NCBI GenBank assembly: GCA_944390265.1 | Contig: CALXPK010000043.1 | Location: forward strand, 1 to 61,020 | DNA: 61,020 bases | Direction: 5' to 3' | DNA from: an uncultured Alphaproteobacteria bacterium | Lineage (GTDB): Bacteria > Pseudomonadota > Alphaproteobacteria > RF32 > CAG-239 | Part shown: positions 1-29,474 of the stretch, one piece after another | Position numbering within the stretch: position 1 is the stretch's first letter | Layout: every line of letters begins with the position of its first letter | Translations under genes and position numbers: made by a program | The notes under the pieces: model-generated | What the model was told of the DNA's origin: nothing | Database searches by the model: none | The model's input: only the letters and a program-made list of their open reading frames with translations

Positions 1-477
1 CATCATATCTTCGGTTGCATCTCGAAACTGGTAAAAAACCGGCCATGATGACAAAAAATTTATCATTCCGCCGGGAAGCCATCGACTGCTCATTTCCGCT
101 TCATCGCTGATGACCGTGTTTCTCAAAATTACATATTGTTTGATGAATGTTTCCAACATCAAATCTTTTGAGGCCATGTCGGTTGAGATTGGCTCCGAAC
201 GCACCAGCTTGTCCGAATTGTCCTGTCGGATGATTAAAAACGGCTCAACCTCGACCAACGGCGCCAAATGAAACAAGGCCAAACTCGAGCTCAGAAAAAC
301 AATCAGCGAAATGGTGGCAAAAAAGATGAACAATCGGGAAAGCCACATATAATATACCAGCTTTAAGGATTGGGTTTCTTTTTCCTCCTTATTGAGAAAT
401 TCGGCATGAGGCTGTTTGTTCTTGTCGGTGATTGACAAGACCTGCGCCCCTGACTGAAGAGATTTTGTTTCCGGCAT
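1..477 (-). CDS. VirB8-like T4SS inner-membrane protein, N-terminal part only (gene continues past the left edge)
   Basis: Not in the ORF track because it is open at the window edge. My translation starts at ATG 477-475, preceded by AGGAAAAAAG: MPETKSLQSGAQVLSITDKNKQPHAEFLNKEEKETQSLKLVYYMWLSRLFIFFATISLIVFLSSSLALFHLAPLVEVEPFLIIRQDNSDKLVRSEP...LETFIKQYVILRNTV. It has a short cytoplasmic N-terminus, one TM helix, then the vEPflIr / fi.qYV..R pattern I associate with VirB8/TrbF. It starts 36 nt after the stop of the 1225-aa gene. Confidence 0.55.
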   Translation of the reverse strand, partial: MPETKSLQSGAQVLSITDKNKQPHAEFLNKEEKETQSLKLVYYMWLSRLFIFFATISLIVFLSSSLALFHLAPLVEVEPFLIIRQDNSDKLVRSEPISTDMASKDLMLETFIKQYVILRNTVISDEAEMSSRWLPGGMINFLSSWPVFYQFRDATEDMM

Positions 478-513
478 CTTTTTTCCTTGCTCTCTCTTTC
501 TTACTTGCTCTTG

Positions 514-4191: not shown

Positions 4192-4882
4192 CTTTTTTCT
4201 CCTCAATAATATTGCTTTGTTGGCTCTTAAACAACGGTTCAACCTCTCCGTGAACCGCATAAGCCGCCGTCATCTGAGATTTGATGGCAACCAGCTCTTG
4301 CAAAACCGTTAAAATTTGGTCCGTGGTGGCCGATATCATATATTTGTTATACAATCCGCCGTTCAAATCATCGGCTTTGGTATATTCTTTTTCGGCCGTG
4401 ACAATTTGCGTGTCTATTTTGGTGAGCTGTTTTTCCAGCTCTCTGACCGCCGTGAAGGCCTCTATCATCGTATCTTCAAAAAACTCTTGCCCTTCTCGCT
4501 TATAGGCCAACTGCTCGTCCGGATCATTAGACGGATATGTGAAAAACAACTCCGGAAAGACTTTTCTTATTTCTTCTTCATTCGAAACATCGACAATTTT
4601 GCTTTCCTTAATTTCTTTGGTACCGGGAATCTTGGTCTCTTTCCGTGAAAACAAGCTCTTAAAAAAGTCTTGTATGGATTTATACACCTGCAAAGTGGCT
4701 TTTATCACTTTATTAGCAAAGGTTGCGGCTTTGTTGGCCACCGAGGTGATGGTGTTGGGAACCTGTGTGGCCAAGCTGCCCGGATCAAACAAGGCGCAGG
4801 CGTCGTTTCTCAGCGGAAGAATTGTCAGAGATACAACCATGCTCATGAAGATAAACAATTTCAGACATGTTTTTTTCATCAT
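4175..4882 (-). CDS. Secreted helical protein, possible VirB5/TrbJ-like paralog (235 aa)
   Basis: Signal peptide MMKKTCLKLFIFMSMVVSLTILPL. The mature N-terminus ALFDPGSLATQVPNTITSV resembles the start of VirB5/TrbJ proteins. Its start overlaps the stop of the upstream gene (TAATG), and its 3' end overlaps the next gene. Confidence 0.65.
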   Translation of the reverse strand: MMKKTCLKLFIFMSMVVSLTILPLRNDACALFDPGSLATQVPNTITSVANKAATFANKVIKATLQVYKSIQDFFKSLFSRKETKIPGTKEIKESKIVDVSNEEEIRKVFPELFFTYPSNDPDEQLAYKREGQEFFEDTMIEAFTAVRELEKQLTKIDTQIVTAEKEYTKADDLNGGLYNKYMISATTDQILTVLQELVAIKSQMTAAYAVHGEVEPLFKSQQSNIIEEKKDETVK

Positions 4883-6048
4883 TATTTATCTCCTTTCTTT
4901 TTATAGACATAATCATCCATATTAAATTCGGTAATGTTTGTTTGCTCCTTTTGCAATTTGTAAAAGGTTAAATTGGACAGCTCTATGGCGGTTTGGCGCT
5001 TTAAGTCTTGTATCAACAAATGTGTATAGGCACTTAGGGCTTTGAGATTTTCGATTTGCAACTGCGCGGCCGCTCCCCATGCCCCTGCCGTGGTATCAAA
5101 CGTGGAAGCATTATAGCCAATGTCTTCCGCCGAATTGTTTTTTTCATTAATGTCGGGAAGCTGCTTCAAGGCCTCTTCATATGCCGAGATGATGCTGTTT
5201 CTTCTTTCAAGCAAACGGTTGTAACGAATGGTATCTTGCCGCTGAGGGTTCAACTCTTCATCATATTGCAAAAAGTATAATCTTGACGTGCTGGTCAGGG
5301 CATCTTCCGAGCTTGGTTCCGTTGACAAACCGGTCAAAAACTTCATATCATCCTGCAGTTTCGCAATTTGCGTATCGAGGTTTGATAACTCTGTTTTATA
5401 GCTGTTTAACATCTTGTCCAACTCGGCCTTTGCCGTTTCATCCAGATTGCTCAGCTGTCTGCTCAGCTCCTTACACTTATATTTCCATTGTTCATATTCT
5501 GCCTTATAAGCATCTTTATCGGTGGATTTTTCTTGTATCAGCTTTTGCAAATTTGTCATGTTTTGATTGCAGGATTCAATTTGTCCCGAGATAGTGCTCT
5601 TTTGAGCTTCAACCTCGGCCATAAACGAGGTTTCTACCTCCTTTATTTTCATTTTTATGGAGTCATATTGTTTGCCGATAGCTTTGAGGTCATCGGCTAT
5701 TTTGCTGTATGCTCCCACATGCTTGTCATAGATGCCTTTGCCTTCTTCATACATTTTTTTATAGGCTTCTACATCTGACTGAACCTCGTCGGCAAAAGAT
5801 TTGAGGTTGCCGACATTGCTTTCTATCCACGATCTGGCTTCGGTAAAACCTTTGCCGATTTTTTGCACAATGGTTAAATTGCCGGCTTTATCCAAAATAT
5901 TTTGTGCCTGCTTTCCGGCTTTGGTTACCGTGGTTGTGACATCTTCCGCCATGTTAGAGAGTTTGGCCAAAATCCATGCCGATGCCGTTGAGGTGCTACT
6001 CAAGACAAGGGAGAAAACAAATATTATCTGCAATATCAGTTTTTTCAT
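4882..6048 (-). CDS. Secreted coiled-coil protein of the T4SS operon, unknown function (388 aa)
   Basis: Signal peptide MKKLILQIIFVFSLVLSSTSTASA, followed by long charged helical sequence. Its ATG overlaps the upstream stop by 4 nt (6045-6048), which suggests translational coupling. Confidence 0.75.
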   Translation of the reverse strand: MKKLILQIIFVFSLVLSSTSTASAWILAKLSNMAEDVTTTVTKAGKQAQNILDKAGNLTIVQKIGKGFTEARSWIESNVGNLKSFADEVQSDVEAYKKMYEEGKGIYDKHVGAYSKIADDLKAIGKQYDSIKMKIKEVETSFMAEVEAQKSTISGQIESCNQNMTNLQKLIQEKSTDKDAYKAEYEQWKYKCKELSRQLSNLDETAKAELDKMLNSYKTELSNLDTQIAKLQDDMKFLTGLSTEPSSEDALTSTSRLYFLQYDEELNPQRQDTIRYNRLLERRNSIISAYEEALKQLPDINEKNNSAEDIGYNASTFDTTAGAWGAAAQLQIENLKALSAYTHLLIQDLKRQTAIELSNLTFYKLQKEQTNITEFNMDDYVYKKKGDK

Positions 6049-6773
6049 TTGTTGCCTCCTTGCGATGTAGATGCGGCTTTTCTTTCCGTTGTTTGCTCCG
6101 AATCCAGCGTTATGGAAGTCATAATTTGGGTTCCCCGATATTCGGCAATTTGAGATTCCATAAACAAAATGTCATTCCAGCGTCTGACAATTTTGTCGGC
6201 CATGGCTCGGTTACCTTGAATGATTTCTCGCGTGTTTTTGCTATCCAAAGTTGTATCCGGCAAATCTCTTTCTTTGGCCAAATTAACTCGCGTGGCCAAA
6301 GCATGGGCATACATGGCAGCAACATTCATTTGCAAAAGTTGTGTGTTTTTCTGCTGGTTGGCCTTGGCTTGCTGCATTTGTTGCCCTTGTGAAGAAAATG
6401 TGTTCATATATACATTTTCAACGGCCTTTGAGGCTTTGTCCCCGTCATTGATGTTTTCGGCAATGCCCGATACGGCCTGTGTGGACGGAACCAAACGCGG
6501 CAGATTGATTTTGGTGATTGTGTCGGCATAGCTTTTGATAGCGTCAAAACCAAAATTGCCCGATTTTAACTCTTCTATTGTTTTTTGGATGGTAGCTTCA
6601 ACCTGCTCGGCTTGCTCGCCGGCGGCATTGACATTTTCGACCATATCGGCCGAATTGTTGGCCACATCCGTACCGATAATCGGTACCGGTATCGGGAAAA
6701 AGGCTTGTCCTTCGGAGGCATAAAAACTTCCGAATATCAGGCTGAAAATTGCTATTTTGTGCAAATTGTGCAT
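6045..6773 (-). CDS. VirB5/TrbJ-like secreted protein (242 aa)
   Basis: Signal peptide MHNLHKIAIFSLIFGSFYASEGQA. The mature N-terminus FFPIPVPIIGTDVANN resembles the IPV.D start of VirB5/TrbJ. Size and all-helical composition fit VirB5. The call is by motif and position only. Confidence 0.5.
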   Translation of the reverse strand: MHNLHKIAIFSLIFGSFYASEGQAFFPIPVPIIGTDVANNSADMVENVNAAGEQAEQVEATIQKTIEELKSGNFGFDAIKSYADTITKINLPRLVPSTQAVSGIAENINDGDKASKAVENVYMNTFSSQGQQMQQAKANQQKNTQLLQMNVAAMYAHALATRVNLAKERDLPDTTLDSKNTREIIQGNRAMADKIVRRWNDILFMESQIAEYRGTQIMTSITLDSEQTTERKAASTSQGGNK

Positions 6774-6796
6774 GAAGTTCTCCCTTTTTCCGCCGA

Positions 6797-7807
6797 TTAT
6801 TCTTTTTTATCTATATTGGTCAAATCGCGATTGTTAACCTCATATGTTCCAAAATCGCGGAAAGCATCTAAGCCAAGCTGGCTGGCATAAACCTGAATCA
6901 GTTTGTTTTTCAGCTTTAGGGCTTCCATCTCGGTTAAGGTCAAAACCTCAATATCACCGCGCTCATCCGTGGCTTTGGATGATTTTTCCTGCAAGGGCAG
7001 CAACACTTCTTTTTCATAGCCCGAGGTATCATTTTTATAGCGGGCGGCATCGGCTATGGCATGAGAAGTTGTGTCTATCAGCGAATCTTGATACAACTCA
7101 TTCATTTGTTCTCTGGCGGTTTGGGTGCCTTGTGCGCGCTGCGAGATGACTTTTTCCAAACATTCACTCATTTTATCCAAAGTGGTGGTGTCCATTTCAC
7201 AATAGTTTGCCAGATTATCGGAGAAAAGGAAAACATTTTCTGCCGTGGTTCCGGTGTAGGCTTGCGTTGCCTCTTTGGCAAAAGACAATCTCTCTTGCTT
7301 GCGGCGAACGGCATAATGCAACGCTTTGGGGTCTAAACTGTTGTCACCGCGTATAAACGGACGTCTGCCGCGGCTCGGGCTTTGCGGCTCGACATATCGC
7401 GGAGAACGCTCCAATGGTTTGGTCATGGCTTTTTCGGCCGGAGCCGGTACCGGAACGGCTTCTTGCGCGGCAGGATTTATTTCTTCTTGGGTGTTTGTTT
7501 CCGGTTCTTGTTTCTGTACTTGGTTTTGCTTACGAACTTCTTCTATTTTTCGATCATATACTTCAGCGCCTTTGGGTGCGGCTAAAGATAGTTCTTTTTG
7601 ATATTTGTTTTGAAATTCGCCCATTTGGTCGGCCAAATTTTGTTGCTGTACCTCGCGCTCATCAATGGATTTTTGAACTTGTTGCGCTTTGGCCAAAAGC
7701 TCGTCCAAATCTTCCGCCGATGCCTCAAAGGCGCTCAAGGAGGCCAACAAAAGCCCACCCATGCCGGCTTTTAGGATATGTGACATTTTAAAAATTTGCT
7801 TTGTCAT
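6797..7807 (-). CDS. Secreted protein with coiled-coil N-part and Pro-rich linker, unknown function (336 aa)
   Basis: Signal-like N-terminus ...AGMGGLLLASLSAFEASAED, a charged coiled coil, then the stretch PAAQEAVPVPAPAEK. It is tightly packed in the operon, with 22-23 nt gaps on each side. Confidence 0.7.
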   Translation of the reverse strand: MTKQIFKMSHILKAGMGGLLLASLSAFEASAEDLDELLAKAQQVQKSIDEREVQQQNLADQMGEFQNKYQKELSLAAPKGAEVYDRKIEEVRKQNQVQKQEPETNTQEEINPAAQEAVPVPAPAEKAMTKPLERSPRYVEPQSPSRGRRPFIRGDNSLDPKALHYAVRRKQERLSFAKEATQAYTGTTAENVFLFSDNLANYCEMDTTTLDKMSECLEKVISQRAQGTQTAREQMNELYQDSLIDTTSHAIADAARYKNDTSGYEKEVLLPLQEKSSKATDERGDIEVLTLTEMEALKLKNKLIQVYASQLGLDAFRDFGTYEVNNRDLTNIDKKE

Positions 7808-7829
7808 TTTTTGTTCCTCTCTTGTGCGC

Positions 7830-8759
7830 TTATGAAATAAAACTACCTACGTCTTTTATCAAATCTTGGCCTTGCTTAATCAATTGTTCGGCTTGTCCAT
7901 ACAAATCTTTAGCTCTTTTTTGATATTCATCACCTTTTTTAATCAAGCTGTCGGCCTCATTTTTCATTTGCTCAACTTTGTTGCCGATATCTTTGGCTTG
8001 TTGCTGCAAATTTTTTGCATCTTCTATCCATTGTTCACCTTGTTTTATCAACGCTTGAGCTTCTTGTTTTTTGGCTTGCGCTTGCTCTACTAAGGCTTCG
8101 GCCTCTTCTTTGCTTTTTTCTGAAATAACGGTTTTGCTTTGAGCCAGCAAATCGTCCGCTTCGGCCAACAAATCTTTTCCTTGTTGTAACAGCTCCGGCC
8201 CTTCTTTGGCATATTTTTTGGCATTTGAAATCAGATTTTCGGCCTCATTCTTCATATTTTGAGCTTCCGATAACAAGTTTTTGCCATCGGCGACCGATTG
8301 TTTGGCATCATCGACCAGCTTGTCGGCCTGATCTTTGAGGTCATTGGCTTGGTTGATTAATTCTTTGCTGCGGTTAGCCAACTCTGCTCCTTCTTTAACC
8401 TTATCCACCACAGCCTTTCCTTTTTGAACCCATTTGTTATTTTTGGCCGCTTCCAGTTTTTTTTCATATTTTTCTTTGACTTCCTGCAATTTTTGCAGAC
8501 GGTCGGTGATGTTTTTTTTGATAAAGCCGTTCATGGCCTCATTATATTTTCCTAATGCGCCTTGTATGTTTTTGGCTGTCTTAGTGGCCCAAGCCAATTG
8601 GGTGGAATTTTGCACATCGGTCGCAGCGCGTTTTACGGCCTGAACCAAACTTTGAACATCAATGGAGGGAATGCCGAAACCATAGCTCGGCTGCGGTGAA
8701 ACAATAAACATATATGCGCTTATTAACGCCAGCGCCAAAATTTTATCCGTTTTTTTCAT
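7830..8759 (-). CDS. TrbJ/VirB5-like N-terminus fused to a long repetitive coiled coil (309 aa)
   Basis: Signal peptide MKKTDKILALALISAYMFIVSPQPSYG. The mature start FGIPSIDVQSLVQAV resembles the TrbJ/VirB5 start. The remainder is iterated A-K-E-Q-L-I helical repeats (AKDL..QAEQLIKQGQDLI and similar). It is the first gene after virB4. Confidence 0.55.
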   Translation of the reverse strand: MKKTDKILALALISAYMFIVSPQPSYGFGIPSIDVQSLVQAVKRAATDVQNSTQLAWATKTAKNIQGALGKYNEAMNGFIKKNITDRLQKLQEVKEKYEKKLEAAKNNKWVQKGKAVVDKVKEGAELANRSKELINQANDLKDQADKLVDDAKQSVADGKNLLSEAQNMKNEAENLISNAKKYAKEGPELLQQGKDLLAEADDLLAQSKTVISEKSKEEAEALVEQAQAKKQEAQALIKQGEQWIEDAKNLQQQAKDIGNKVEQMKNEADSLIKKGDEYQKRAKDLYGQAEQLIKQGQDLIKDVGSFIS

Positions 8760-8838: not shown

Positions 8839-11271
8839 TTACGCAATATTTAAATATTTTGTAACAAAGTTGTCTTCGCCATATTCTTTTATCAAATCTT
8901 CCACCAAAAGAACATTCTTGCGTCCCGAATTGTATAGTTTCAGATAGACGCCCAAACCGCTCAAATCCACATCCAAAATGACGGACTCTCCCGTGGCCGG
9001 ACGCGACAACAAGATGGCATACGGAAAATCGCGATAACTTTTGCCGAAAATGAAGTCCAACTCGCTCTGAGTCAGGTTCCAGCTGGCATAGTCTTCCAAT
9101 TGGGCTTGCGGATTGCGGAAAAAGATGACGGTTTGGCACTGGCCGCGAATAACCTCCCCCACACCTAATTTATCGATAATGCTCGGCTGTTGGAAGGCAC
9201 AGAGATAGGCTTGACGCTTTTTACGGCCTTCTTGCAAGCCGATGATGAAATAGTCTCTGAACATGGGGTGTTTGAGCATCGGCGCGGTCTCATCAATCAT
9301 AATCAAGGCCGGAATGCCGGCATCTCCGGTTTCTGACATGATACGGTGCATGATATAGCTGATGACCGCCGGCGCCAAGGTTTCATCTTCAAAAATATGG
9401 GTGAAGTCAAACGCCATAAATCTTTTGCTGTTTAAGTCCAAACTATCAGTATCGGCATTGAAAATGTTGCCGTATTGCTCCGGATTGACCCATTTGAAAA
9501 GCTCTCGACGCATATTGCCGGTCGGCGAAAAACAGCTCTTGTATAAGTTTTTCATGATGCGTTCTTCCGGACGCAAATAGTCAAACGCGGTGGTGACGGC
9601 TCGCGCAATTTCTTTTTCCGAGAGGGCATCATCAACCATGGTAATGGCTTTGAGCCAGCGGCGCAAAAAGGCGCGGTTGGTCGCGTTGTCCTCACAATCA
9701 AACGGGTTTAAGGAAACGTTTTTCTCTTCTCCGTCAAAGCCGATATAGGCGCCGCCAATCGATCGTGTGAAAATTTCGGCACCGCGGTGACGATCAAAGA
9801 AAAACACCTTCAAATCGCGGTGACGCATGGCTTGTCCGGCCAAAAAGGTCAGCAAGGTGGTTTTACCTTGTCCGGTCGGACCAATAATACAGCAGTGCGC
9901 CACGGCTGATTCTTCCGAAGAAACGTGGAATTGAAAACGATACGGAGATCCCGAGGTGGTGCGGAAAATGGTGATGGCGCCGTTGCCCCAGTCTGATTTG
10001 CTAAAGCCTTCCGACGGTTTTTCAAAACTGATGGCGGTGGCCACCACGCGCGATAAATAGCGATATGTCCGCGGATAGGTGTCATATGTGGGAAACTGGT
10101 TAAAAAACGTGGCTTCGCAAACCCAGCCTTCGCGTACCGGCGTGACACTGAACAAACGGCATATTCTTTGGACTTCGCTTTCACCAAACTCAACTTCTTC
10201 CAGACTTTGGCCACGGATGATGACGGACATGGAATATTCGGTCAGAGATTGATAATTGGCATCGCTATCCTCAATTGAAGATAAGGCTATGCTGTATTGA
10301 TTGACCACTTCGGATGAAAAACTGGTGATGCCGGCCATTTTTTGTTGTTGCAGCAGCAAGGCTCGCGCATTGGCACGGAAAATCGGCTTGATATTGTGCA
10401 ATAACACCAGTTCGCAATCTATCGAGAGCAAAGAGTTTATCATGGCTTCATCCATATAATCTCCGGATGTGCGAATGCCCATGGTGATTTCAAAGCACTC
10501 TTTTTCTCCCGAAAAGAATCTGATGACGCCGTTTTCTCCGGTAAAATGAATGTGGTCGGCCGTCAACATTTGGTTGAGCATCGAGCCTTCGGCGTTTCCG
10601 ATTTTTGGTTCCGGCTTGGATATGGGGCTGCAAATGCGCGAAAAAACATATAGCGGACTATCGGTTGCCGGACTGTCCGGTGTTTCATACATGGTTTTGA
10701 CGCCATATTCACTCAATGTGGCCAACAAGGCTTGCGAGGCATAGTTCAAGTCTTTCAGTGCATCGGTTCGATCCGGTACGGATAATATAATATAGTGCGT
10801 GTTGGAAAAAACTCGATTGATGTTTTGCGCCCAGACTTGCGAAATTTGTTCCAGAAGTTGGTTGCCGAAATCGCCGACGTCTTCTTCCAAGGGAATCCGC
10901 TCACGCAGGGTGATGACCCGACAGGTTACCTGCAGATCCGACATGCCGTCAATCCATGATTTGCGCGCCTCCAGCATTGACATCACTTTTTCTTCGTTGG
11001 CAAAGGTCAAATCTATGCCTTCTACCTTGAAAACTCTTACCAGCGAATTATTATAGCATCTGACGGTGATGCCGTCCGACAAAAGTTTGCTGAACGGCAA
11101 AAAGTCCGACACTCTTGATTCTTGCGGTTGGGGCAAAATTATGCGTCCGAATTTCGTGGCCCAAAATCCGGCAAAGGAGGCTGCCGAGATAAAGCCTATA
11201 ATGGCAACCAAAACCTCGGTATTTGACAGTCCTTGAACAAATATATCAAAAAAATCGCTACTAGGGTGCAA
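8839..11271 (-). CDS. virB4: Type IV secretion ATPase VirB4/TrbE family (810 aa)
   Basis: Walker A IIGPTGQGKTTLLTF, a Walker B-like ALIMIDETAPML, typical VirB4 length, an N-terminal hydrophobic helix, and an 11-nt overlap with the VirB3-like gene. Confidence 0.92.
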   Translation of the reverse strand: MHPSSDFFDIFVQGLSNTEVLVAIIGFISAASFAGFWATKFGRIILPQPQESRVSDFLPFSKLLSDGITVRCYNNSLVRVFKVEGIDLTFANEEKVMSMLEARKSWIDGMSDLQVTCRVITLRERIPLEEDVGDFGNQLLEQISQVWAQNINRVFSNTHYIILSVPDRTDALKDLNYASQALLATLSEYGVKTMYETPDSPATDSPLYVFSRICSPISKPEPKIGNAEGSMLNQMLTADHIHFTGENGVIRFFSGEKECFEITMGIRTSGDYMDEAMINSLLSIDCELVLLHNIKPIFRANARALLLQQQKMAGITSFSSEVVNQYSIALSSIEDSDANYQSLTEYSMSVIIRGQSLEEVEFGESEVQRICRLFSVTPVREGWVCEATFFNQFPTYDTYPRTYRYLSRVVATAISFEKPSEGFSKSDWGNGAITIFRTTSGSPYRFQFHVSSEESAVAHCCIIGPTGQGKTTLLTFLAGQAMRHRDLKVFFFDRHRGAEIFTRSIGGAYIGFDGEEKNVSLNPFDCEDNATNRAFLRRWLKAITMVDDALSEKEIARAVTTAFDYLRPEERIMKNLYKSCFSPTGNMRRELFKWVNPEQYGNIFNADTDSLDLNSKRFMAFDFTHIFEDETLAPAVISYIMHRIMSETGDAGIPALIMIDETAPMLKHPMFRDYFIIGLQEGRKKRQAYLCAFQQPSIIDKLGVGEVIRGQCQTVIFFRNPQAQLEDYASWNLTQSELDFIFGKSYRDFPYAILLSRPATGESVILDVDLSGLGVYLKLYNSGRKNVLLVEDLIKEYGEDNFVTKYLNIA

Positions 11272-11551
11272 ATTTCATCCCCTTTGATTTATATAGGTTG
11301 GTCGTTGGCTTGTAGGTTTGGCCGTAAGCCTGAAGCATGGTCGACAGATGCGGTTCTTTCAGCCCCAGCGAAACGATTATGAGATGCACAATCAATATGC
11401 TGAACAAAAAGAACAACGGGTTCAAATCCATCATCCCGATGGCCATAAACATTATGGGAAATTGCAAGCCGATGTTAAGCAACACCGGCAAAAACGGCCC
11501 CCATAATATTTTGGGAGGATTTGCAACTGCTTTAAGAATCATTTCTCTCAT
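11261..11551 (-). CDS. VirB3-like small membrane protein (96 aa)
   Basis: Two hydrophobic helices (ILWGPFLPVLLNIGLQFPIMFMAIG; LFFLFSILIVHLIIVSLG) followed by KEPHL. It lies directly upstream of virB4 and overlaps it. Confidence 0.75.
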   Translation of the reverse strand: MREMILKAVANPPKILWGPFLPVLLNIGLQFPIMFMAIGMMDLNPLFFLFSILIVHLIIVSLGLKEPHLSTMLQAYGQTYKPTTNLYKSKGMKFAP

Positions 11552-11649
11552 GGGTCTAAATCCTCATTTTTATCTGTCTTTTTTATCATATCTTTTCAAC
11601 TCTGCCTTGGCAACAGAAACATATGTTTTTATCACAATCAAAGCGAATC

Positions 11650-11686
11650 AAAAAAGGTACACTTTGCTTTTTAGTGTACCTTTCTT
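11650..11686 (-). terminator. Rho-independent terminator/attenuator between the pilin genes and virB3-virB4
   Basis: Stem GGTACACT (11656-11663) pairs with AGTGTACC (11673-11680) around a 9-nt loop. A/T runs flank both sides, so a T-run follows the stem on the minus strand. Confidence 0.6.
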
Positions 11687-11744: not shown

Positions 11745-12917
11745 TCAGAGGTTGATGCCGTTCCAGTTCGGAATATCTCTTTCACAACTCATGGTAGATG
11801 AGTTCCATCTTCCGCCGATGAGTTGACAGCTTCTTTTTTCCTGACTGTAATCCGTTCCGCTCACCGATACTTCATCCAAGGTTCCGCCATCAATTGCCGA
11901 ATTGTTTTCGATGGCTTCTTCCACCTGATTGAGCGTGATGTCATTGGGGTTAACGGTTGTATCTGCCAAACCTAAGTTGTCCAGATTGTTGGTTTTTTCT
12001 TGATTATTACTTATGGCCTGATTAATTTTATCCACCGTTATGTTTGTCGGAGCGTTTGACGTATCAGACAATCCTAAATTATCCAAATTATTGGAAGTAT
12101 TTTTGTTTAACGTATTGGCAATATCCGCTTCGGTTATGCTGACCGGCGCATTTGAAGTATCAGCCAGCCCCAGATTGTCCAAACTATTGGTTTTGCTTTG
12201 GTTGGCGGCCAAAGCCTGATTAATTTTATCTACCGTTATGCCCGTCGGGTCATTGGTCGTATCGGCCAAGCCCAGATTATCCAAACTGTTTGCGGTGCTG
12301 CTTGATGTTGCGGTATTGGTTGTCGTTGTTTGATTTTCCATGGCGTTGATTAAATCATCTGCAGATAACTTCGGCGTATTTTTCAAATTTTCCATAACAT
12401 TTTCTATGTTTGTCGTTCCCGAGGTGCAACCCGTGCCGGTTCCGGGGACGCAATTTGTTTTTATATCGCTGCTATTGCTATTTTCAGAGGTGGCCGTGCC
12501 GTTGCTTCCAGGGTCTTTTTGCGAGGTCGGTGATGTGGTTGAGCCTTCCGTGGCCGTATAACTTCCCGAGGCATCCAGATAATGGCCATAGCCCAACATA
12601 TTGGCATATTGACCGGCTTTTCCCTCTTTGGTGGCTAAATAGTCTATCAACAAGCCGACATTGGCCACCAAAAACAATCCGATGGCAATGTTGGCAAACC
12701 ATTTCCAATTTATTTTTCCGAAAATGGCCGCAAAGGCAAAACCAATTAAACCAAAACCGGCAAGAATGAAAATCAGGGGACGCAAATCGTAAATTAACTT
12801 GGCAGCCTTATCTCTGACCGTACCCAGAACGTCTGCAGCATTGGCATCGCCGCTCCACAACACAATTGCCAAACAACAAAACATTGTCAGTAATATTGCA
12901 CGTTCCGGATGTTTCAT
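11745..12917 (-). CDS. VirB2/TrbC-like pilin domain (first ~100 aa) fused to a ~290-aa Ser/Thr/Asn-rich C-terminal extension with four ~34-aa repeats
   Basis: The N-terminus has a signal peptide plus two TM helices, and shares the FGKINWKW motif with the two short paralogs (GNINWKW, GKLDWKK). The short paralogs end 15-20 aa after TM2, whereas this one continues for ~290 aa. The extension has 4x (N/S)LDNLGL(A/S)DT.N.P..IT...I and two Cys pairs (NCVPGTGTGC; SCQLIGGRWNSSTMSC). Confidence 0.7.
   Translation of the reverse strand: MKHPERAILLTMFCCLAIVLWSGDANAADVLGTVRDKAAKLIYDLRPLIFILAGFGLIGFAFAAIFGKINWKWFANIAIGLFLVANVGLLIDYLATKEGKAGQYANMLGYGHYLDASGSYTATEGSTTSPTSQKDPGSNGTATSENSNSSDIKTNCVPGTGTGCTSGTTNIENVMENLKNTPKLSADDLINAMENQTTTTNTATSSSTANSLDNLGLADTTNDPTGITVDKINQALAANQSKTNSLDNLGLADTSNAPVSITEADIANTLNKNTSNNLDNLGLSDTSNAPTNITVDKINQAISNNQEKTNNLDNLGLADTTVNPNDITLNQVEEAIENNSAIDGGTLDEVSVSGTDYSQEKRSCQLIGGRWNSSTMSCERDIPNWNGINL
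11892..12293 (-). repeat. In-frame tandem coding repeat (4 copies of ~100 nt) inside the extended pilin gene
   Basis: The nucleotide motif GACAATCTGGGGCTGGC / TTGGATAATTTAGGATTG recurs on the coding strand. The peptide copies are SLDNLGLADTTNDPTGITVDKINQAL, SLDNLGLADTSNAPVSITEADIANTL, NLDNLGLSDTSNAPTNITVDKINQAI and NLDNLGLADTTVNPNDITLNQVEEAI. Confidence 0.85.
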
Positions 12918-12940: not shown

Positions 12941-13306
12941 CTATTTCAACGTATCTTCAATTTTCGGCGCATCGCCGCCGGCAATATAGGTTAAAATTCC
13001 GCCGGTCATACCAATGACCATCAGGCCGATGACAATGGCGCCCAACCATTTCCAGTTGATGTTACCGAAAAAGCCGCCGATGGCTACGCCGATGATGCCA
13101 AAACCGGCCACGACATAGATTATGTCGCGCATGCCTTTAAAAATTTCTATGCCTTTAGATATCAGATCGGCAAACAGACCGCCGCCCGAATAGGTTGACG
13201 TTACGGCAGCATCTGCGGCAAAAGCCGATGCCACGCATAAGACTGAAGAAAACAATAGTCCCCATAACAGTGTTATACTTATTTTCTTTATTCTCACGCT
13301 TAGCAT
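12941..13306 (-). CDS. VirB2/TrbC-like T4SS pilin paralog (121 aa)
   Basis: Signal peptide ...CVASAFAADA, followed by two hydrophobic helices separated by FGNINWKW. The size is typical of a pilin. Confidence 0.7.
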   Translation of the reverse strand: MLSVRIKKISITLLWGLLFSSVLCVASAFAADAAVTSTYSGGGLFADLISKGIEIFKGMRDIIYVVAGFGIIGVAIGGFFGNINWKWLGAIVIGLMVIGMTGGILTYIAGGDAPKIEDTLK

Positions 13307-13412
13307 TGCTTTTTGTCCTTATATCTTAATTTAAATAAACAAAAAAGGAGGCCTCAATTCAAATTCATTCCAAAAATTTTCATTGTGCCTCCCCTTGCTC
13401 ATTTTTTTCAGA

Positions 13413-13760
13413 CTATTGAGCTGAACTACTGAAAGTATCACCCAATTTTGTACCTTCGTTATCACCGGTAGCGTAGTCAACAATAGAACCGGCTGCCGCC
13501 AAAATGGCCAAGCCTACAGCCAACATTGAAAACTTTTTCCAATCCAACTTGCCGAAAATGGCCATGAAGGCCAAAACCACCAAACCGAAACCACCAACAA
13601 TGAAGATGATGCTTTTTACAGCCTTAAACACGGCAACGGCTTTGGTTTGAGCCGTATCAACCAAGTCCACGGCTTGTGCAAAGGCGGCATCGGTTGTGCC
13701 GAGCATGACAAACAAAGCCAAGCACAAAATGGTGCAAAGATTTTTCTTAATAAAACGCAT
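13413..13760 (-). CDS. VirB2/TrbC-like T4SS pilin paralog (115 aa), first gene of the operon
   Basis: Signal peptide MRFIKKNLCTILCLALFVMLGTTDAAFAQA, followed by two hydrophobic helices separated by FGKLDWKK. Confidence 0.7.
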   Translation of the reverse strand: MRFIKKNLCTILCLALFVMLGTTDAAFAQAVDLVDTAQTKAVAVFKAVKSIIFIVGGFGLVVLAFMAIFGKLDWKKFSMLAVGLAILAAAGSIVDYATGDNEGTKLGDTFSSSAQ

Positions 13761-15890: not shown

Positions 15891-15977
15891 TAAGTTGTTG
15901 CTTGCGCTTGATTATTTATTTTTCAGTATGTATGATAGGTAAAAAATATGACAAAATATTGCTTAGGAACCGCAAAA

Positions 15978-16634
15978 ATGATTAAAAAACAAAGTTTATT
16001 CTCGTTTTTATTCTGTTGCCTGATTTTGTCGGGATGTTCGGCTTTCAACCCTGCCGCTCAGCCAACTTCGGCTGCCAACGCCCCGCAACAGACAGGTGTT
16101 AATTCTCATCAAAACAGCATTCAGAATACGCCTCCCGTCAGCAATGATTTTGTTCAAAATACCGAAGTGGCCGCCGATTATAAAGAATATGGCGAAAGAA
16201 CACCCCGCGACCAGTTGGTGGTGCAAGGCGGTGCCGGAAGCAATTTATCTTCATCCATTCCGCCAACCATTGAGGATGAGGTTGTCGATTATGAAGAAAG
16301 CGTCCAAATCAGTGAGACCGAAGAAGTTTCCGAAAACCAAAATGCGGATAACCTAAGCGAAGATCCGGTTGAAGACTGGTTGGCCGAAGAAGGCAAAAGT
16401 TTGAAAACTTTGCTGACCGAATGGAGCGACCGCGCCGGTTGGAGACTGATTTGGAACACAAATCGAAACTATACCTTAACCGCAGGTGCCATGTTCAGAG
16501 GCCGTTTTGCCGATGTCAGCTCGGCTTTAATCCGCGCTTTTGCTCGCGCAAAACCGGCTCCGATTGCAACTTTCTATAAAGGAAACCGCGTCTTGGTCGT
16601 TGAGACTATGGAGGATGAAAATGCGTATGAATAA
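15978..16634 (+). CDS. pilL: PilL-like lipoprotein with TcpQ-type C-terminal domain (R64 nomenclature)
   Basis: Lipobox MIKKQSLFSFLFCCLILSGC. The C-terminus WLAEEGKSLKTLLTEWSDRAGWRLIWNTNRNYTLTAGAMFRGRFADVSSALIRAF...ATFYKGNRVLVV matches my memory of the toxin-coregulated-pilus Q / PilL domain. It lies directly upstream of the secretin. Confidence 0.6.
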   Translation: MIKKQSLFSFLFCCLILSGCSAFNPAAQPTSAANAPQQTGVNSHQNSIQNTPPVSNDFVQNTEVAADYKEYGERTPRDQLVVQGGAGSNLSSSIPPTIEDEVVDYEESVQISETEEVSENQNADNLSEDPVEDWLAEEGKSLKTLLTEWSDRAGWRLIWNTNRNYTLTAGAMFRGRFADVSSALIRAFARAKPAPIATFYKGNRVLVVETMEDENAYE

Positions 16635-18240
16635 TTATATCAAAACTGCCTTTGGGCTTTCCATTTCGGCCATTGTCGCCGCGTGCTCCATGTCAACGCA
16701 ACTTGATGCCGAAATTGAGCATGAGGTGAAAACCGCAACCGAACTGAAAGAGCAATCCAAAGTTCCAACTCAGGTTGCCCCAGAAGACGTGGTCCGCGTT
16801 AAAAATGATATTTGGCTCGGCGACAAGTCGGAAGTGGAATATAACGGCGAACCTCTGCCCAGCTATTTGGAGACCAAAGACGGAATCACTTTGGTCAGTA
16901 ACCGTCCGATTACGTTGTTTGAAGTCGGCGATATGATTAATAAGCTCACCTCCATTCAGGTGCGTTTTGCCAACCATCTCGAACAAGATGTTTTGAGCGT
17001 GGCCAAGGAAAACAAACCCGACCCGAACACCATTAATACCGATTGGACCGAACCCAACAAGATGTTGCTTTCTTACAAAGGTCCGTTGAGCGGCTTGCTG
17101 AACGAAGTGGCTTCTCGTTTCGGCATTTGGTGGAAATATGACAAGAATCAGATTTTCTTCTATAAATATGAAACCAGAACTTTCACCGTTTACAGCTTGC
17201 CGACTAAACCGTCTTTGCAGGTTAATATGGGCGGTGAATCTTCCGGCGAAAGCGGAAATGCTTCGGCAACTTTGACCTCCGGCGCCGAATTGGAATTGTG
17301 GTCTAATATTGAAAAAGCCATTCAATCCATGATTGGCGGGGAATCCAAACTCAGCGTTGATTCCGTCAACGGAACCGTGACCCTGACCGGAACCCCGATT
17401 GAGATTAAAAAAGTGGCTAAATATATTAATGAGCAAAATACGCGCTTGTCCAGACAAGTGGCTATCAGCGTTAAGATTTTGCAAGTGACGCTTTCCGATT
17501 CAGACCAATATGGTTTGGATTTGTCCGCTGGCTTTAACGATGGTAAAACCTCTTTGAATCTGGCTAGCCCGTCCGGTCTTTCCGATGAAATTGAGAAAAA
17601 CATCAATATGACCATTGCCCCCGGAAACTGGAACGTGACAACCTTTATTCAGGCTTTGTCGGAGAAAAACAATACCACGTTGGTGACCAGCGGTACGGTT
17701 ACAACGCTGAACAACAAACCGGCACCGATTCAGGTTACACGTAAGGAAAACTATATTTCCGAAATTACCAAAACCAACTCCGGAAGCTCTGACAGTAGCT
17801 ATGACTATGATATTTCTACCGAAACCGAAGAAATTGAAACCGGTTTTACGCTCAATGTGTTGCCGAGAATTATGGAACACGGCCGTTTGTTGATGATGTT
17901 CAACCTGACTTTGTCTGACCTGATTTCGCTTGAAAAAGTTTATTTGCAGACAAACGAAGATCCGACACAACCGGCTTCCGGCGAATATATTCAAAACCCG
18001 ATTGTGGAAACCAGAGGCTTCACCCAAGAAGTGGCTTTGAAATCCGGCGAATCCTTGATTTTGAGCGGTTATGAACGTGTGGAAAGCGAAGCCAAAAAGT
18101 CCGGCGTGGGTTCTGCAGACAACTCTTTGCTCGGCGGTACGGCCGTTGCTACCAAAGACCGCAGCCTGTTGGTCATTATCTTAACGCCGGTGGTTTTGGA
18201 ATCTCCTTTGAATCCGGAATCCAGAATGAAAACTTATTAA
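16621..18240 (+). CDS. pilN: PilN-family type IVb pilus secretin lipoprotein (539 aa)
   Basis: Start is ATG 16621, 6 nt after GGAGG. Lipobox LSISAIVAAC. The C-terminal secretin core reads TTLVTSGTVTTLNNKPAPIQVT...GFTLNVLPRIMEHGRLLMMFNLTLSDL...PIVETRGFTQEVALKSGESLILSGYE. Confidence 0.8.
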   Translation: MRMNNYIKTAFGLSISAIVAACSMSTQLDAEIEHEVKTATELKEQSKVPTQVAPEDVVRVKNDIWLGDKSEVEYNGEPLPSYLETKDGITLVSNRPITLFEVGDMINKLTSIQVRFANHLEQDVLSVAKENKPDPNTINTDWTEPNKMLLSYKGPLSGLLNEVASRFGIWWKYDKNQIFFYKYETRTFTVYSLPTKPSLQVNMGGESSGESGNASATLTSGAELELWSNIEKAIQSMIGGESKLSVDSVNGTVTLTGTPIEIKKVAKYINEQNTRLSRQVAISVKILQVTLSDSDQYGLDLSAGFNDGKTSLNLASPSGLSDEIEKNINMTIAPGNWNVTTFIQALSEKNNTTLVTSGTVTTLNNKPAPIQVTRKENYISEITKTNSGSSDSSYDYDISTETEEIETGFTLNVLPRIMEHGRLLMMFNLTLSDLISLEKVYLQTNEDPTQPASGEYIQNPIVETRGFTQEVALKSGESLILSGYERVESEAKKSGVGSADNSLLGGTAVATKDRSLLVIILTPVVLESPLNPESRMKTY

Positions 18241-18252
18241 AAGGGAAAAAAC

Positions 18253-19530
18253 GTGCTAGACGACGCAAAATTTGCAGAAAATGAGGTCGAGACAGCTCCT
18301 CGCACTTGGGGAACAAGCATTTTTGTCGATGGACAAACTTATGCAACAAGTTTGTTTTGGCAGCCTTTGCAAAACCAAGATGAATCCATTGCCGAGATTG
18401 CCGAGGCTTCGGAAGGCATTTTGGAAGGGGCCGATTTGTTCTGTATCAAACCCGGTAAGGCACCTCAGTTCGGTATTTGCGTCTCGCAAGAGGGATACAA
18501 AAAAGGACAAATGGTGGCTGCCGTGGCTTTGTCAACGGCTTTGGCTGACCGCACCTCTTTTATTGCCGTTTTTAAAGTGGCCGAAGGTTGGTGGTATACT
18601 TGCGTCAGAAACGATATCATCCTCTCTGACGGCGATATGCTGTTTTTGAACGAAGAAGATGCCAGAAATCAATTTACTTCCATGTTGGCCGTGCCGGATT
18701 GGGGCAGAAAAATTGCGCCGGCCGAATGGCATATTGAAGATACCGAAGATATTAGCTTGGCACAACTGTTGCAACGCGGCACTTCGGCCAAGCTGCAAAA
18801 AATTAAAGGTTTGCGCGGAGCCAAATTGCTGATGGTGGTCGGTATTTCCGTTGCCGTCGGACTTTGGTTGCTCTCTAACCTGATTGATGCATTGTTGTTT
18901 ACACCGGTCAAACGTCCGGTGGTGGTGCCGGTGCAGCCCAAAGTGGTGAAAAAAGTTGAGCAAGTGCCGATTATCAAACCTTGGGAAACCTTGAAAAATC
19001 CATCGCAGATTATGACCCAATGCGTTGAAAATATTGAAAAGCTAAAACGGATTTTGCCGCCAGGATGGAAAATCGGTGAGTTTTCTTGCTCGCAGACCGG
19101 AGTGTCCACTTCTTGGAAAAGAGAGGTTGGGCGAATGTCTTGGATTAAAAAATCGCTTGATGAATCTGGCATTGATTTTGCTTATCGGACTTTTTCCGAA
19201 GACGGAAATGTTTTGTCGGTCGGAATTAATTATACAAAGATTGATACGCTGACTTCGCCTCCGACGACAAGTTTGCCCAATTTGCGCGAAATTGTGAACA
19301 ATCTTTTTCAAAGCATTGGCGAGAAAGTGGCTCTGAGCAACGGAACTTTTACTCAAAATATTGGGGAAAAAGAACGTCGGACATACAGATATCTCGGTTT
19401 TAGGTTCTCTTCCGAATATAATCCTTTGGTTTGGAACGGTTTATTAACAAAATTTTCAGGACTTGATATTAAAGTAATCAGATATGATGGTAGCACTTGG
19501 AATTATGAGGGAGCAATTTATGCGTTGTGA
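18253..19530 (+). CDS. pilO: PilO-like pilus assembly protein (R64 PilO / PilO2-type, 425 aa)
   Basis: GTG start 6 nt after AAGGGA. The cytoplasmic N-domain has the FWQPL motif, with a single central TM (AKLLMVVGISVAVGLWLLSNLIDALLF). Size and position after the secretin match R64 PilO. Confidence 0.5.
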   Translation: MLDDAKFAENEVETAPRTWGTSIFVDGQTYATSLFWQPLQNQDESIAEIAEASEGILEGADLFCIKPGKAPQFGICVSQEGYKKGQMVAAVALSTALADRTSFIAVFKVAEGWWYTCVRNDIILSDGDMLFLNEEDARNQFTSMLAVPDWGRKIAPAEWHIEDTEDISLAQLLQRGTSAKLQKIKGLRGAKLLMVVGISVAVGLWLLSNLIDALLFTPVKRPVVVPVQPKVVKKVEQVPIIKPWETLKNPSQIMTQCVENIEKLKRILPPGWKIGEFSCSQTGVSTSWKREVGRMSWIKKSLDESGIDFAYRTFSEDGNVLSVGINYTKIDTLTSPPTTSLPNLREIVNNLFQSIGEKVALSNGTFTQNIGEKERRTYRYLGFRFSSEYNPLVWNGLLTKFSGLDIKVIRYDGSTWNYEGAIYAL

Positions 19531-21046: not shown

Positions 21047-21055
21047 GATTTAAAC

Positions 21056-22735: not shown

Positions 22736-22754
22736 TTTTTTTCATGAGGAAAAA

Positions 22755-23885: not shown

Positions 23886-23886
23886 G

Positions 23887-24450: not shown

Positions 24451-24539
24451 ACGAAAGATATATATCTAATGCCAATCTTGTTTAGCTTTTATTAATTATA
24501 TATAATTATAATATCAAAGATGAAAAAATGGAGGGTAAA

Positions 24540-25097: not shown

Positions 25098-25136
25098 GTG
25101 ATATGTTAATGATGCAGAAGCTGAAGGAGATTGAAA

Positions 25137-29470: not shown

Positions 29471-29474
29471 ACTC

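What the first reader, a model, noticed from the sequence alone, without database searches (positions are those of the whole stretch)
11745..12917. T4SS pilin (VirB2-like) fused to a ~290-aa repeat-bearing C-terminal extension
Three adjacent genes encode VirB2/TrbC-like modules: a signal peptide, TM1, the FG(K/N)(I/L)(N/D)WK(W/K) motif and TM2. Two of them stop 15-20 residues after TM2, as normal pilins do. The third continues for about 290 aa. This extension has a Ser/Thr/Asn-rich linker with a Cys pair (NCVPGTGTGC), four ~34-aa repeats (N/S)LDNLGL(A/S)DT.N.P..IT...I, and a terminal Cys pair (SCQLIGGRWNSSTMSC). VirB2-family pilins are normally C-terminally trimmed or cyclised, and they pack tightly in the pilus. 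A large appended domain therefore implies one of three things. It could be a pilin-displayed adhesin, a precursor cleaved into pilin plus a secreted repeat protein, or a membrane-anchored non-polymerising paralog. I do not know of a described example.
Basis: partly seen in the sequence, partly recalled or inferred. Interest (0 to 1): 0.72.

Follow-up and report, generated by a model that had tools for sequence, protein, structure and literature searches.

The report
T4SS pilin with long variable tail
An uncultured gut alphaproteobacterium encodes a secretion-system pilin (VirB2 family) fused to a 265-290-residue, strain-variable tail; more than 70 related species have the same design, up to 2058 residues long, and no paper I could search describes it.

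Summary
ORF 11745-12917(-) is 390 aa. It has a signal peptide and a VirB2/TrbC helical hairpin (Pfam PF04956, 30.5 bits against a cut-off of 27.9). After the hairpin come a Ser/Thr/Asn-rich linker with a Cys pair, four 32-34-aa repeats and a terminal Cys-pair knob.

The fusion is not an artefact. The triad of short, short and long VirB2 genes, followed by virB3 and virB4, recurs in more than 70 species of uncultured gut Alphaproteobacteria. The third paralog ranges from 153 to 2058 aa. All length change lies at the termini, never inside the hairpin.

The tail is mosaic. It is unalignable between species, and its 3' part is swapped between strains whose flanks are 98-99.8% identical. Some of its modules also occur on another protein of the same gene cluster.

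AlphaFold predicts a mostly disordered string with single helices and one confident mini-knob. No known domain was found, and the repeat region has no homolog outside this gene.

My best reading (about 0.45) is a modular minor pilin. It would insert through its hairpin and carry the variable tail on the outside of the pilus, for adhesion or surface variation. Cleavage of a precursor, or a non-polymerising membrane anchor, remain possible.

I rate it a new variant of a known kind, with high interest.

The parts
11745..12917 (-). Long VirB2/TrbC paralog (third of the triad), 390 aa plus stop codon
   Evidence: ORF. PF04956 at 30.5 bits, above the GA of 27.9. 32 fused homologs. Same position in more than 70 loci.
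12837..12917 (-). Signal peptide, residues 1-27 (...GDANA|AD)
   Evidence: Hydrophobic h-region at residues 6-24. The A-x-A site aligns with that of the homologs. The cleavage site itself is inferred.
12636..12836 (-). VirB2 helical hairpin, residues 28-94, with the basic loop FGKINWKW
   Evidence: AF2 helices 30-65 and 71-94, pLDDT 73-83. Across 65 species the core has no deletions, and inserts in only 4.
12543..12635 (-). Conserved neck, residues 95-125 (LGYGxYL...YTxTxGS), homologous to the C-terminal tail of the short paralog
   Evidence: Alignments A1 and A2: L108, Y110 and G111 are nearly invariant.
12291..12542 (-). Ser/Thr/Asn-rich linker, residues 126-209, with the Cys pair C156/C164 (CVPGTGTGC) and one degenerate repeat
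   Evidence: Composition and Cys positions. The CxPGxGxxC motif is present in 18 of the 33 proteins checked. Much of this stretch has pLDDT below 50.
11889..12290 (-). Four 32-34-aa repeats (N/S)LDNLGL(A/S)DT.N.P..IT...I, residues 210-343
   Evidence: Each repeat is predicted as one short helix (229-248, 263-280, 295-312, 329-339) with mostly low confidence. No homolog outside this gene.
11748..11888 (-). C-terminal module, residues 344-390: strand motif DGGTLDEVSVSG plus the Cys-pair knob C364-C378
   Evidence: pLDDT 90-93 for helix 358-366 plus a beta-hairpin. The module profile finds it in relatives and in other proteins.
12941..13306 (-). Second VirB2-like paralog, 121 aa
   Evidence: PF04956 at 22.3 bits, below GA. 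Aligns with the triad. An orthologous position is seen in relatives.
13413..13760 (-). First VirB2-like paralog, 115 aa; probably the major pilin (inferred)
   Evidence: PF04956 at 47.6 bits. Its core is the most conserved of the three (73% mean pairwise identity). Strong AAGGAG ribosome-binding site.
11644..11686 (-). Intrinsic-terminator-like hairpin plus U-run between the long pilin gene and virB3
   Evidence: dG -16.8 kcal/mol, z -4.2. I counted an equivalent A-run/stem/T-run hairpin, by eye, after the long paralog in about three quarters of the 66 related loci listed.
13335..13402 (-). Terminator-like hairpin after the first paralog
   Evidence: dG -25 kcal/mol, z -4.0. The nearest relatives have only 31-35 nt between these two genes, too short for such a hairpin.
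11261..11551 (-). VirB3-like protein, 96 aa, two TM segments
   Evidence: Position and topology. No Pfam hit, so the assignment is inferred.
8839..11271 (-). VirB4 ATPase, 810 aa
   Evidence: PF03135 CagE_TrbE_VirB, E = 4.8e-11. 38% identical to the VirB4 of Microvirga plasmid pMVF16-3.
6045..6773 (-). Secreted all-helical 242-aa protein of the cluster. In one relative its ortholog carries the same tail modules as the long pilin.
   Evidence: P0034 is 70% identical to the P0007 extension over 117 aa. The fold could not be identified.
1..513 (-). 5' part of a virB8-like gene; the T4SS cluster runs off the end of the contig
   Evidence: Translation. In L085 the relative scores PF04335 VirB8 and is followed by a second VirB8 and a VirB9/CagX with a SPOR domain.

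Best explanation
The gene encodes a modular VirB2-family pilin. It is the third, lineage-conserved paralog of a pilin triad in a chromosomal VirB-type T4SS of an uncultured gut alphaproteobacterium.

Proposed mechanism:
1. The signal peptide is removed.
2. The two-helix hairpin inserts in the inner membrane with its basic loop in the cytoplasm, so both termini face the periplasm.
3. The T4SS machinery lifts the hairpin into the pilus lattice together with the short paralogs. There it is a minor subunit, either sparse along the shaft or forming the first layer under the tip.
4. Because both VirB2 termini lie on the outer face of conjugative pili, the 265-aa tail projects outward. The tail is a flexible Ser/Thr/Asn-rich string with single helices and a disulfide-locked terminal knob.
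5. The tail serves as an adhesin or recognition tether, and as a surface that varies from strain to strain.

Shown here: family membership of the core, the operon context, conservation of the architecture, length change confined to the termini, mosaic strain-level variation, and the absence of large known domains.

Inferred: polymerisation, surface exposure, minor-subunit status, and any binding function.
For: 1. The core scores above Pfam's cut-off for TrbC/VirB2. It is 42-50% identical to the two short paralogs and keeps the same AGFG...FGK.NWKW signature, so one lattice could take all three.
2. In 65 species the third paralog's hairpin has no deletions, and inserts (at most 5 aa) in only 4. 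Total length nevertheless ranges from 153 to 2058 aa, and every extension is N- or C-terminal. In solved pili the termini are close enough to be cyclised and the inter-helix loop faces the lumen (PMC11722321). Placing the termini on the outer face is my own step from that and from memory.
3. The tail looks like an exposed, diversifying surface. It is unalignable between species whose flanks are about 75% identical. Its 3' part is replaced between strains whose flanks are 98-99.8% identical. A 173-aa Cys-rich tail cassette is shared between two species at 61% identity but is absent from their sister strains.
4. The tail is nevertheless functional. Open frames of up to 2058 aa are maintained, and the LDNLGL motif is kept through synonymous changes.
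5. In one genome the same modules sit on another secreted protein of the same T4SS cluster.
6. Six of the longest tails (776-2058 aa) have no significant Pfam domain besides TrbC; the only other matches are weak and below cut-off. The model is a disordered string with small elements. That is what could thread alongside a pilus through the outer-membrane complex (my inference).
7. The three pilin genes form a unit closed by a conserved terminator before virB3. This is the arrangement expected of a structural-subunit operon.
8. In the giant relatives the N-terminal extension is 245-838 aa and, in the three I read, rich in Ala, Lys and Glu (or Glu, Lys, Ala). If it forms a coiled coil, which I infer from composition only, it would be longer than the periplasm is wide. 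That argues for an extracellular location there.
Against: - There is no experimental or structural evidence that this protein polymerises or is exposed.
- Its core is the least conserved of the three paralogs (63% against 73% and 69%).
- From memory, no T4SS pilus is known to tolerate more than short epitope fusions. A tail on every subunit would be sterically hard, so I must assume a minor or tip role.
- C-terminal trimming of VirB2-type pilins is an established precedent: 27 residues in RP4 TrbC and 5 in R27 TrhA. Removal of the tail is therefore plausible.
- The AF2 model has low overall confidence (mean pLDDT 59).
- I could not show that the module-sharing partner protein is VirB5-like.
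Confidence: 0.45

Rival explanations
1. The protein is a precursor. The tail is cut off in the periplasm near the conserved neck (residues about 95-165), giving a normal-sized pilin. The tail is either degraded, acting as a propeptide that keeps the pilin pool inactive, or released as a separate secreted repeat protein.
For: C-terminal processing is a known step for this family: TrbC loses 27 residues and TrhA loses 5, through TraF/TrhF peptidases (PMC11722321). The neck LGYGxYL...CxPGxGxxC is conserved while everything after it varies, as a recognition site would be.
Against: No S26 or TraF-like peptidase was found among the window ORFs scanned, although the cluster continues beyond the contig. 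The giant relatives would need two endoproteolytic cuts, and they have no A-x-A site before the core. A discarded propeptide would not keep 1000-2000-aa open frames, selected repeat motifs or exchanged cassettes.
Confidence: 0.2
2. The protein is a non-polymerising, inner-membrane-anchored paralog. The VirB2 hairpin serves only as an anchor and a docking element for the T4SS base. The tail acts in the periplasm, for example as a tether, a regulator or plug of pilus assembly, or a scaffold contacting the cell wall or the outer-membrane complex.
For: Its core is the least conserved of the three. A recent review states that VirB2 proteins are needed for T4SS function even where no pilus is made (PMC12857230). 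The strand motif DGGxLxEVxVxG resembles a TonB box, which is a periplasmic beta-augmentation motif; this resemblance is from memory and untested.
Against: Strain-level cassette replacement and cross-species exchange are unusual for a periplasmic scaffold. If the extensions of 300-1300 aa per side in relatives are extended coiled coils, they exceed periplasmic dimensions (inference). The gene is placed with the pilin genes, upstream of the conserved terminator.
Confidence: 0.2
3. The fusion is an artefact or a decaying gene: two genes joined by a frameshift or misassembly, or a pseudogene with a meaningless read-through tail.
For: None was found.
Against: The frame is uninterrupted and its composition matches the core. 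The protein cluster has 4 member sequences and 32 fused homologs. The same fused third gene occurs in more than 70 species-level genomes from independent assemblies. The C-terminal module is conserved in the closest relatives.
Confidence: 0.02

Closest known systems
Canonical VirB2/TrbC pilins (A. tumefaciens VirB2, RP4 TrbC, R388 TrwL, R27 TrhA)
   Same: Signal peptide plus a two-helix hairpin with a basic loop. Pfam PF04956 match above the cut-off. Gene placed directly upstream of virB3-virB4. The nearest annotated plasmid system (Microvirga pMVF16-3, VirB4 38% identical) has the order TrbC-VirB3-VirB4...VirB8-VirB9-VirB10.
   Different: Those pilins are about 100-150-aa precursors, trimmed or cyclised. 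The Microvirga system has one 117-aa pilin. Here there are three paralogs, and the third carries 265 extra residues, or up to about 1300 per side in relatives. Sequence searches found no similarity to any plasmid pilin (tblastn) or to any solved pilin.
Tandem VirB2 paralog arrays of host-associated Alphaproteobacteria (Bartonella Trw TrwL1-n; Anaplasma phagocytophilum virB2, 8-15 copies)
   Same: Several adjacent, sequence-diverse VirB2 copies in an alphaproteobacterial, host-associated T4SS. They are thought to encode variant surface-exposed pilus components (PMC3406051; PMC3556328).
   Different: As far as I recall, those paralogs are all of ordinary pilin size, and their variation is in copy number and point sequence. 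Here the triad is fixed and orthologous across species, and the variation lies in a large appended tail.
Extended VirB6 paralogs of Rickettsiales (for example A. phagocytophilum VirB6-4, over 4000 aa and repetitive)
   Same: A membrane-embedded core T4SS component fused to a very large, repetitive, strain-variable extension in Alphaproteobacteria (PMC7648143 abstract; PMC3556328). Other components are duplicated as well, here VirB8 twice.
   Different: The subunit is different (VirB6, the channel or platform, not the pilin). No VirB6-like polytopic protein was recognised in the window.
Modular type IV pilins (Streptococcus sanguinis PilB and PilC; ETEC CofB; T2SS GspK)
   Same: The same design idea: a small pilin module that polymerises, with a functional module attached through a linker. 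These are probably located at the tip and are used for adhesion (PMC8179133).
   Different: They belong to an unrelated filament superfamily (type IV filaments, class III signal peptide). Their added modules are usually recognisable globular domains (vWA, lectins), whereas here the tail is mostly disordered with mini-knobs.
Flagellins with hypervariable outer domains, including giant flagellins over 1000 aa
   Same: A conserved helical polymerisation core plus an outward-facing region that is extremely variable in sequence and size (PMC6248924 and PMC7018530).
   Different: In flagellin the variable region is inserted in the middle of the chain. Here it is at the termini, as VirB2 topology requires. 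The filament and its export route are unrelated.

Membership tests
TrbC/VirB2 pilin family (Pfam PF04956) | Profile HMM match above the curated gathering score | tested here: met
   30.5 bits against a cut-off of 27.9, residues 6-85. 29 of the 33 listed proteins (the window's own plus 32 homologs) also carry PF04956.
TrbC/VirB2 pilin family (Pfam PF04956) | Cleavable signal peptide followed by two hydrophobic helices joined by a short basic loop | tested here: met
   Hydropathy and the ANA|AD site. AF2 helices 30-65 and 71-94. The cleavage itself is inferred.
TrbC/VirB2 pilin family (Pfam PF04956) | Gene located in a T4SS cluster next to virB3 and virB4 | tested here: met
   The synteny is conserved in L001, L002, L082, L083 and L084.
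TrbC/VirB2 pilin family (Pfam PF04956) | Small size: a precursor of about 100-150 aa and a mature pilin of about 70-80 aa | tested here: not met
   390 aa here, and 153-2058 aa in orthologs. This is the feature that makes it a variant.
TrbC/VirB2 pilin family (Pfam PF04956) | Polymerises, usually with phospholipid, into the T4SS pilus | not testable with these tools
   No multimer modelling and no experimental data are available. Sequence search found no solved pilin close enough to serve as a model template.
Cyclised or trimmed P- and H-type pilins (RP4 TrbC, R27 TrhA) | A TraF/TrhF signal-peptidase-like maturase encoded with the system | tested here: inconclusive
   No S26-type peptidase was found among the window ORFs scanned with Pfam or NCBIfam. 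The T4SS cluster runs off the contig, and not every ORF was scanned.
Rickettsiales rvh-type T4SS | Duplicated scaffold components (VirB4, VirB8, VirB9) and several extended VirB6 paralogs | tested here: inconclusive
   Two adjacent VirB8 genes followed by VirB9 in relative L085. No VirB6/TrbL hit and only one VirB4 in the window.
VirB5/TrbJ tip proteins (for the 309-aa and 242-aa cluster proteins) | Profile or fold match to VirB5/TrbJ | tested here: inconclusive
   The 309-aa protein gives a weak TrbJ hit, 16.8 bits against a cut-off of 225. The 242-aa protein gives no PDB sequence hit. Its AF2 model has mean pLDDT 51 and Foldseek found nothing.

The most novel reading that the evidence does not exclude
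Gut Alphaproteobacteria build a heteropolymeric T4SS pilus in which a dedicated VirB2 paralog carries appendages of 0.15 to 2 thousand residues on the filament surface. The appendages are exchangeable cassettes: strings, coiled coils and disulfide mini-knobs. This would be the T4SS counterpart of modular type IV pilins and giant flagellins. The bacteria would use it for strain-specific adhesion or to evade host immunity and phages in the gut.
Probability: 0.35. Interest if true: 0.85.

Novelty: new variant of a known kind. Interest (0 to 1): 0.72.

Why it matters
As far as I know, every T4SS pilus described so far is built from small, tightly packed VirB2 subunits, with adhesion assigned to VirB5 or to other proteins. 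A conserved VirB2 paralog with large terminal appendages would show that the pilin itself can be a carrier for functional modules.

That would have three consequences:
- It would widen what T4SS filaments are thought able to do.
- It would give a natural scaffold for display on conjugative-type pili.
- It would raise the question of how such a subunit passes through the outer-membrane complex.

It also marks a prominent surface system that varies between strains in a widespread but uncultured group of human and animal gut bacteria. The system is a candidate determinant of host or partner specificity. If instead the tail is cleaved or stays periplasmic, the family would still define a new mode of pilin maturation or a new accessory role for the VirB2 fold.

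Tried and rejected
- Homologs of the tail alone (residues 165-390) against 5.8 billion proteins: only the query itself was found.
- Foldseek of the full AF2 model against the PDB: no match; the model is too disordered.
- Profile of the pilin core against PDB sequences: no solved pilin was reached.
- tblastn of the core against 72,556 plasmids: no match.
- Pfam on six giant orthologs: nothing beyond TrbC, apart from weak sub-threshold matches to Alanine_zipper and FliJ.
- TRF on the DNA: it does not see the protein repeats because they have diverged.
- Silent cassettes elsewhere in the window (blastn and tblastn): none.
- VirB5-likeness of the module-sharing 242-aa protein: the PDB profile search, hhalign against the 309-aa family, AF2 and Foldseek were all uninformative.
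- Search for a maturase: none in the ORFs scanned.
- First attempt at repeat finder failed on a strand argument.
- Frameshift or misassembly was rejected.
- I considered calling the DGGxLxEVxVxG motif a TonB box. I rejected that as a claim, because the resemblance is recalled and no test was available.
Full report
**1. The observation**

ORF 11745..12917 on the minus strand is one uninterrupted 390-aa frame.

- Residues 1-27 form a signal-peptide-like leader ending ANA|AD. Two hydrophobic helices flank the loop FGKINWKW.
- Pfam TrbC/VirB2 (PF04956) matches residues 6-85 at 30.5 bits, above the curated cut-off of 27.9.
- The two genes just upstream are ordinary-sized VirB2-like proteins. Gene 13413..13760 is 115 aa and scores 47.6 bits. 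Gene 12941..13306 is 121 aa and scores 22.3 bits.
- Downstream lie a 96-aa two-TM VirB3-like protein and an 810-aa VirB4.
- The tail contains the Cys pair C156/C164 (CVPGTGTGC) and four LDNLGL repeats at residues 212, 246, 278 and 312. It ends with the Cys pair C364/C378 in CQLIGGRWNSSTMSC.
- The repeats are only 48-70% identical at DNA level, and the motif is kept through synonymous changes. They are an old repeat maintained by selection.
- The tail of the first short paralog aligns with residues 95-125 of the long one. The long protein is therefore a complete pilin plus about 265 added residues.

**2. The fusion is not an artefact; it defines a family**

A search of 5.8 billion proteins gave 32 homologs. 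Of the 33 proteins listed (these plus the window's own), 29 carry PF04956, and the homologs are 218-681 aa long. The core and neck, up to CxPGxGxxC, are conserved. Everything after that differs.

A scan of species-representative genomes found 122 relatives. All 78 loci kept come from uncultured gut Alphaproteobacteria or 'proteobacteria' MAGs. The hosts are human, mouse, deer, sheep and rabbit.

An HMM search over the ORFs of these loci showed the same triad almost everywhere:
- a first paralog of about 108-182 aa (typically about 113);
- a second of about 110-310 aa;
- a third of 153-2058 aa.

In about 39 species the VirB2 core of the third paralog is internal. It follows a signal peptide and an N-terminal extension of 245-838 aa, rich in Ala, Lys and Glu (or Glu, Lys, Ala) in the three I read. 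A C-terminal extension of 200-1290 aa follows the core.

Across 65 species the hairpin of the third paralog has no deletions, and inserts of at most 5 aa in only 4. All size change is therefore at the termini.

Gene order around the triad is conserved. A divergent type IVb pilus cluster lies on one side and virB3-virB4 plus six unassigned secreted proteins on the other.

**3. Context**

The window is chromosomal. It carries ribosomal protein S1, a GyrB/ParE-type topoisomerase subunit and sugar metabolism genes. It appears to be the entire contig, because the longest contig reported for the protein is 61,020 bp.

The T4SS runs off the left end. The partial ORF at 1-513 is VirB8-like. In a relative it is followed by a second VirB8 and a VirB9 with a SPOR domain.

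The nearest annotated system is on Microvirga plasmid pMVF16-3, with VirB4 38% identical. It has a relaxase, a single 117-aa TrbC/VirB2, VirB3, VirB4, VirB8, VirB9 and VirB10. The triplication and the extensions are therefore innovations of the gut clade.

The pilin genes form their own unit. A strong hairpin plus U-run follows the long gene (dG -16.8, z -4.2). By my count, about three quarters of the 66 related loci have an equivalent hairpin there, with different stem sequences. In this window another terminator-like hairpin follows the first paralog.

**4. What the tail is like**

- AlphaFold2 with a 31-sequence alignment gives a confident hairpin (pLDDT 73-83).
- The linker is largely disordered.
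- Each repeat is predicted as one short helix, mostly at low confidence.
- The last module is predicted confidently (pLDDT 90-93): helix 358-366 plus a beta-hairpin that places C364 near C378.
- The repeat region has no detectable homolog outside this gene.
- Six giant orthologs show no significant Pfam domain besides TrbC.

A profile of the 46-aa terminal module was searched against 1.84 billion representative proteins. It found the close relatives. It also showed that the two halves of the module exist separately as tandem repeats in other proteins:
- the Cys mini-module C-x3-GG-x-W-x4-7-C, spaced by Pro-rich linkers;
- the strand motif DGGxLxEVxVxG.

The tails are thus assembled from small, reusable pieces.

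**5. Variation**

- Between species whose flanking genes are about 75% identical, the tails cannot be aligned.
- Two strain pairs have flanks 98-98.8% and 99.1-99.8% identical. In both, identity stops about 1 kb into the long pilin gene and resumes at or just past its stop codon. The 3' part is rearranged or replaced.
- A 173-aa Cys-rich tail is shared at 61% identity by P0003 and P0008, which come from different species. It is absent from their sister strains P0002 and P0007.
- In the genome that encodes P0007, the ortholog of the window's 242-aa secreted helical protein (6045-6773) has acquired the same modules. It is 70% identical to the pilin tail over 117 aa.

This pattern points to recombinational cassette exchange among proteins of the T4SS cluster.

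**6. Mechanism**

Known structures place the inter-helix loop of VirB2-type pilins towards the lumen. The two termini lie close enough together to be cyclised in some pili (PMC11722321).

Pili are thought to grow from the base under a VirB5 tip complex (PMC12857230). Extensions confined to the termini are what one would expect for appendages on the outside of such a filament.

Five observations favour a modular minor pilin that displays the tail:
- the strain-level mosaicism;
- the maintenance of very long open frames;
- the lack of bulky domains;
- the sharing of modules with another cluster protein;
- co-transcription with the short pilins.

I put this reading at about 0.45.

I infer minor or tip status from four points. 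A tail on every subunit would be sterically difficult. The first paralog has the most conserved core (73%, against 69% and 63%). The first paralog also has the best ribosome-binding site. Finally, modular type IV pilins are thought to sit at tips (PMC8179133).

Two rivals remain:
- Cleavage of a precursor at the conserved neck (0.2). TrbC and TrhA trimming are precedents, but no maturase was found in the scanned ORFs, and the giant forms would need two cuts.
- A non-polymerising anchor acting in the periplasm (0.2). This fits the lower core conservation and the fact that VirB2 is needed even in systems without pili. It fits poorly with the variation pattern and the size of the extensions.

An artefact is excluded.

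**7. Comparison with what is known, and novelty**

The core is a member of the TrbC/VirB2 family. The architecture is not like any described member. My searches found tandem short VirB2 paralogs in Bartonella and Anaplasma, giant VirB6 extensions in Rickettsiales, modular type IV pilins and giant flagellins. They found no extended VirB2. A December 2025 review of T4SS diversity mentions none.

The searches cover open-access papers and preprints only, so an earlier description elsewhere cannot be ruled out.

I rate this as a new variant of a known kind. Interest is about 0.72. It is a clade-wide, conserved and strongly variable feature of a major surface machine in common gut bacteria. It also raises a clear, testable structural question.

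Noticed in passing
window 15948-25697 (+ strand, mostly): An R64-like type IVb pilus cluster lies divergent from the T4SS pilin genes. It contains a TcpQ/PilL-like protein, a secretin, PilO, a weak PilP-like protein, a T2SSE ATPase, a T2SSF platform protein and two PilS/bundlin-like pilins (23821-24450, 25131-25697). The pairing with the T4SS is conserved in relatives.
   Followed up: partly
window 514-8759 (- strand): Six consecutive proteins lie between virB4 and virB8 (309, 336, 242, 388, 235 and 1248 aa). All have signal-peptide-like N-termini and several are rich in coiled coil. None has a significant Pfam or NCBIfam assignment, and no VirB6-like polytopic protein was seen.
   Followed up: partly
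L016-L067 (for example L054:3937-10113, L018:4594-9852): These are giant third paralogs of 1000-2058 aa with the VirB2 hairpin in the middle. The N-terminal arm is rich in Ala, Lys and Glu in those I read. Many share similar C-terminal ends (such as ...EIKRRNDAERQYNEAYARQLELEGK or ...NQARN.Y..AQ.NY.KS..E..RLEKEL).
   Followed up: partly
P0037, P0038, P0039, P0045: These proteins have no signal peptide, share an N-terminus of the type MV(D/E)G(I/V)(S/N).Y, and carry tandem copies of the strand motif (L/I)DGGTLxEVVVTGKKP. That motif also occurs in the pilin tail. From memory it resembles a TonB box. Their genomic origin and role are unknown.
   Followed up: no
L082:12866-13893 / P0034: In one strain the ortholog of window gene 6045-6773 has gained a 200-aa tail copied from the long pilin of the same genome (70% identity over 117 aa).
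   Followed up: yes
window 28048-30953: Three adjacent genes encode a VWA-domain protein, a PP2C phosphatase and a eukaryotic-type Ser/Thr protein kinase. They lie close to the pilus clusters.
   Followed up: no
window 27277-27804 (-): An AhpC/TSA/Redoxin-type thioredoxin-fold protein lies near the pilus clusters. It is only possibly relevant to disulfide formation in the Cys-pair modules.
   Followed up: no
L085:2518-6036: Two adjacent VirB8 paralogs are followed by a VirB9/CagX protein with a C-terminal SPOR (peptidoglycan-binding) domain.
   Followed up: no
L010, L011, L068: A few relatives have four VirB2-like genes instead of three. In L010 two of them are extended, at 257 and 689 aa.
   Followed up: no
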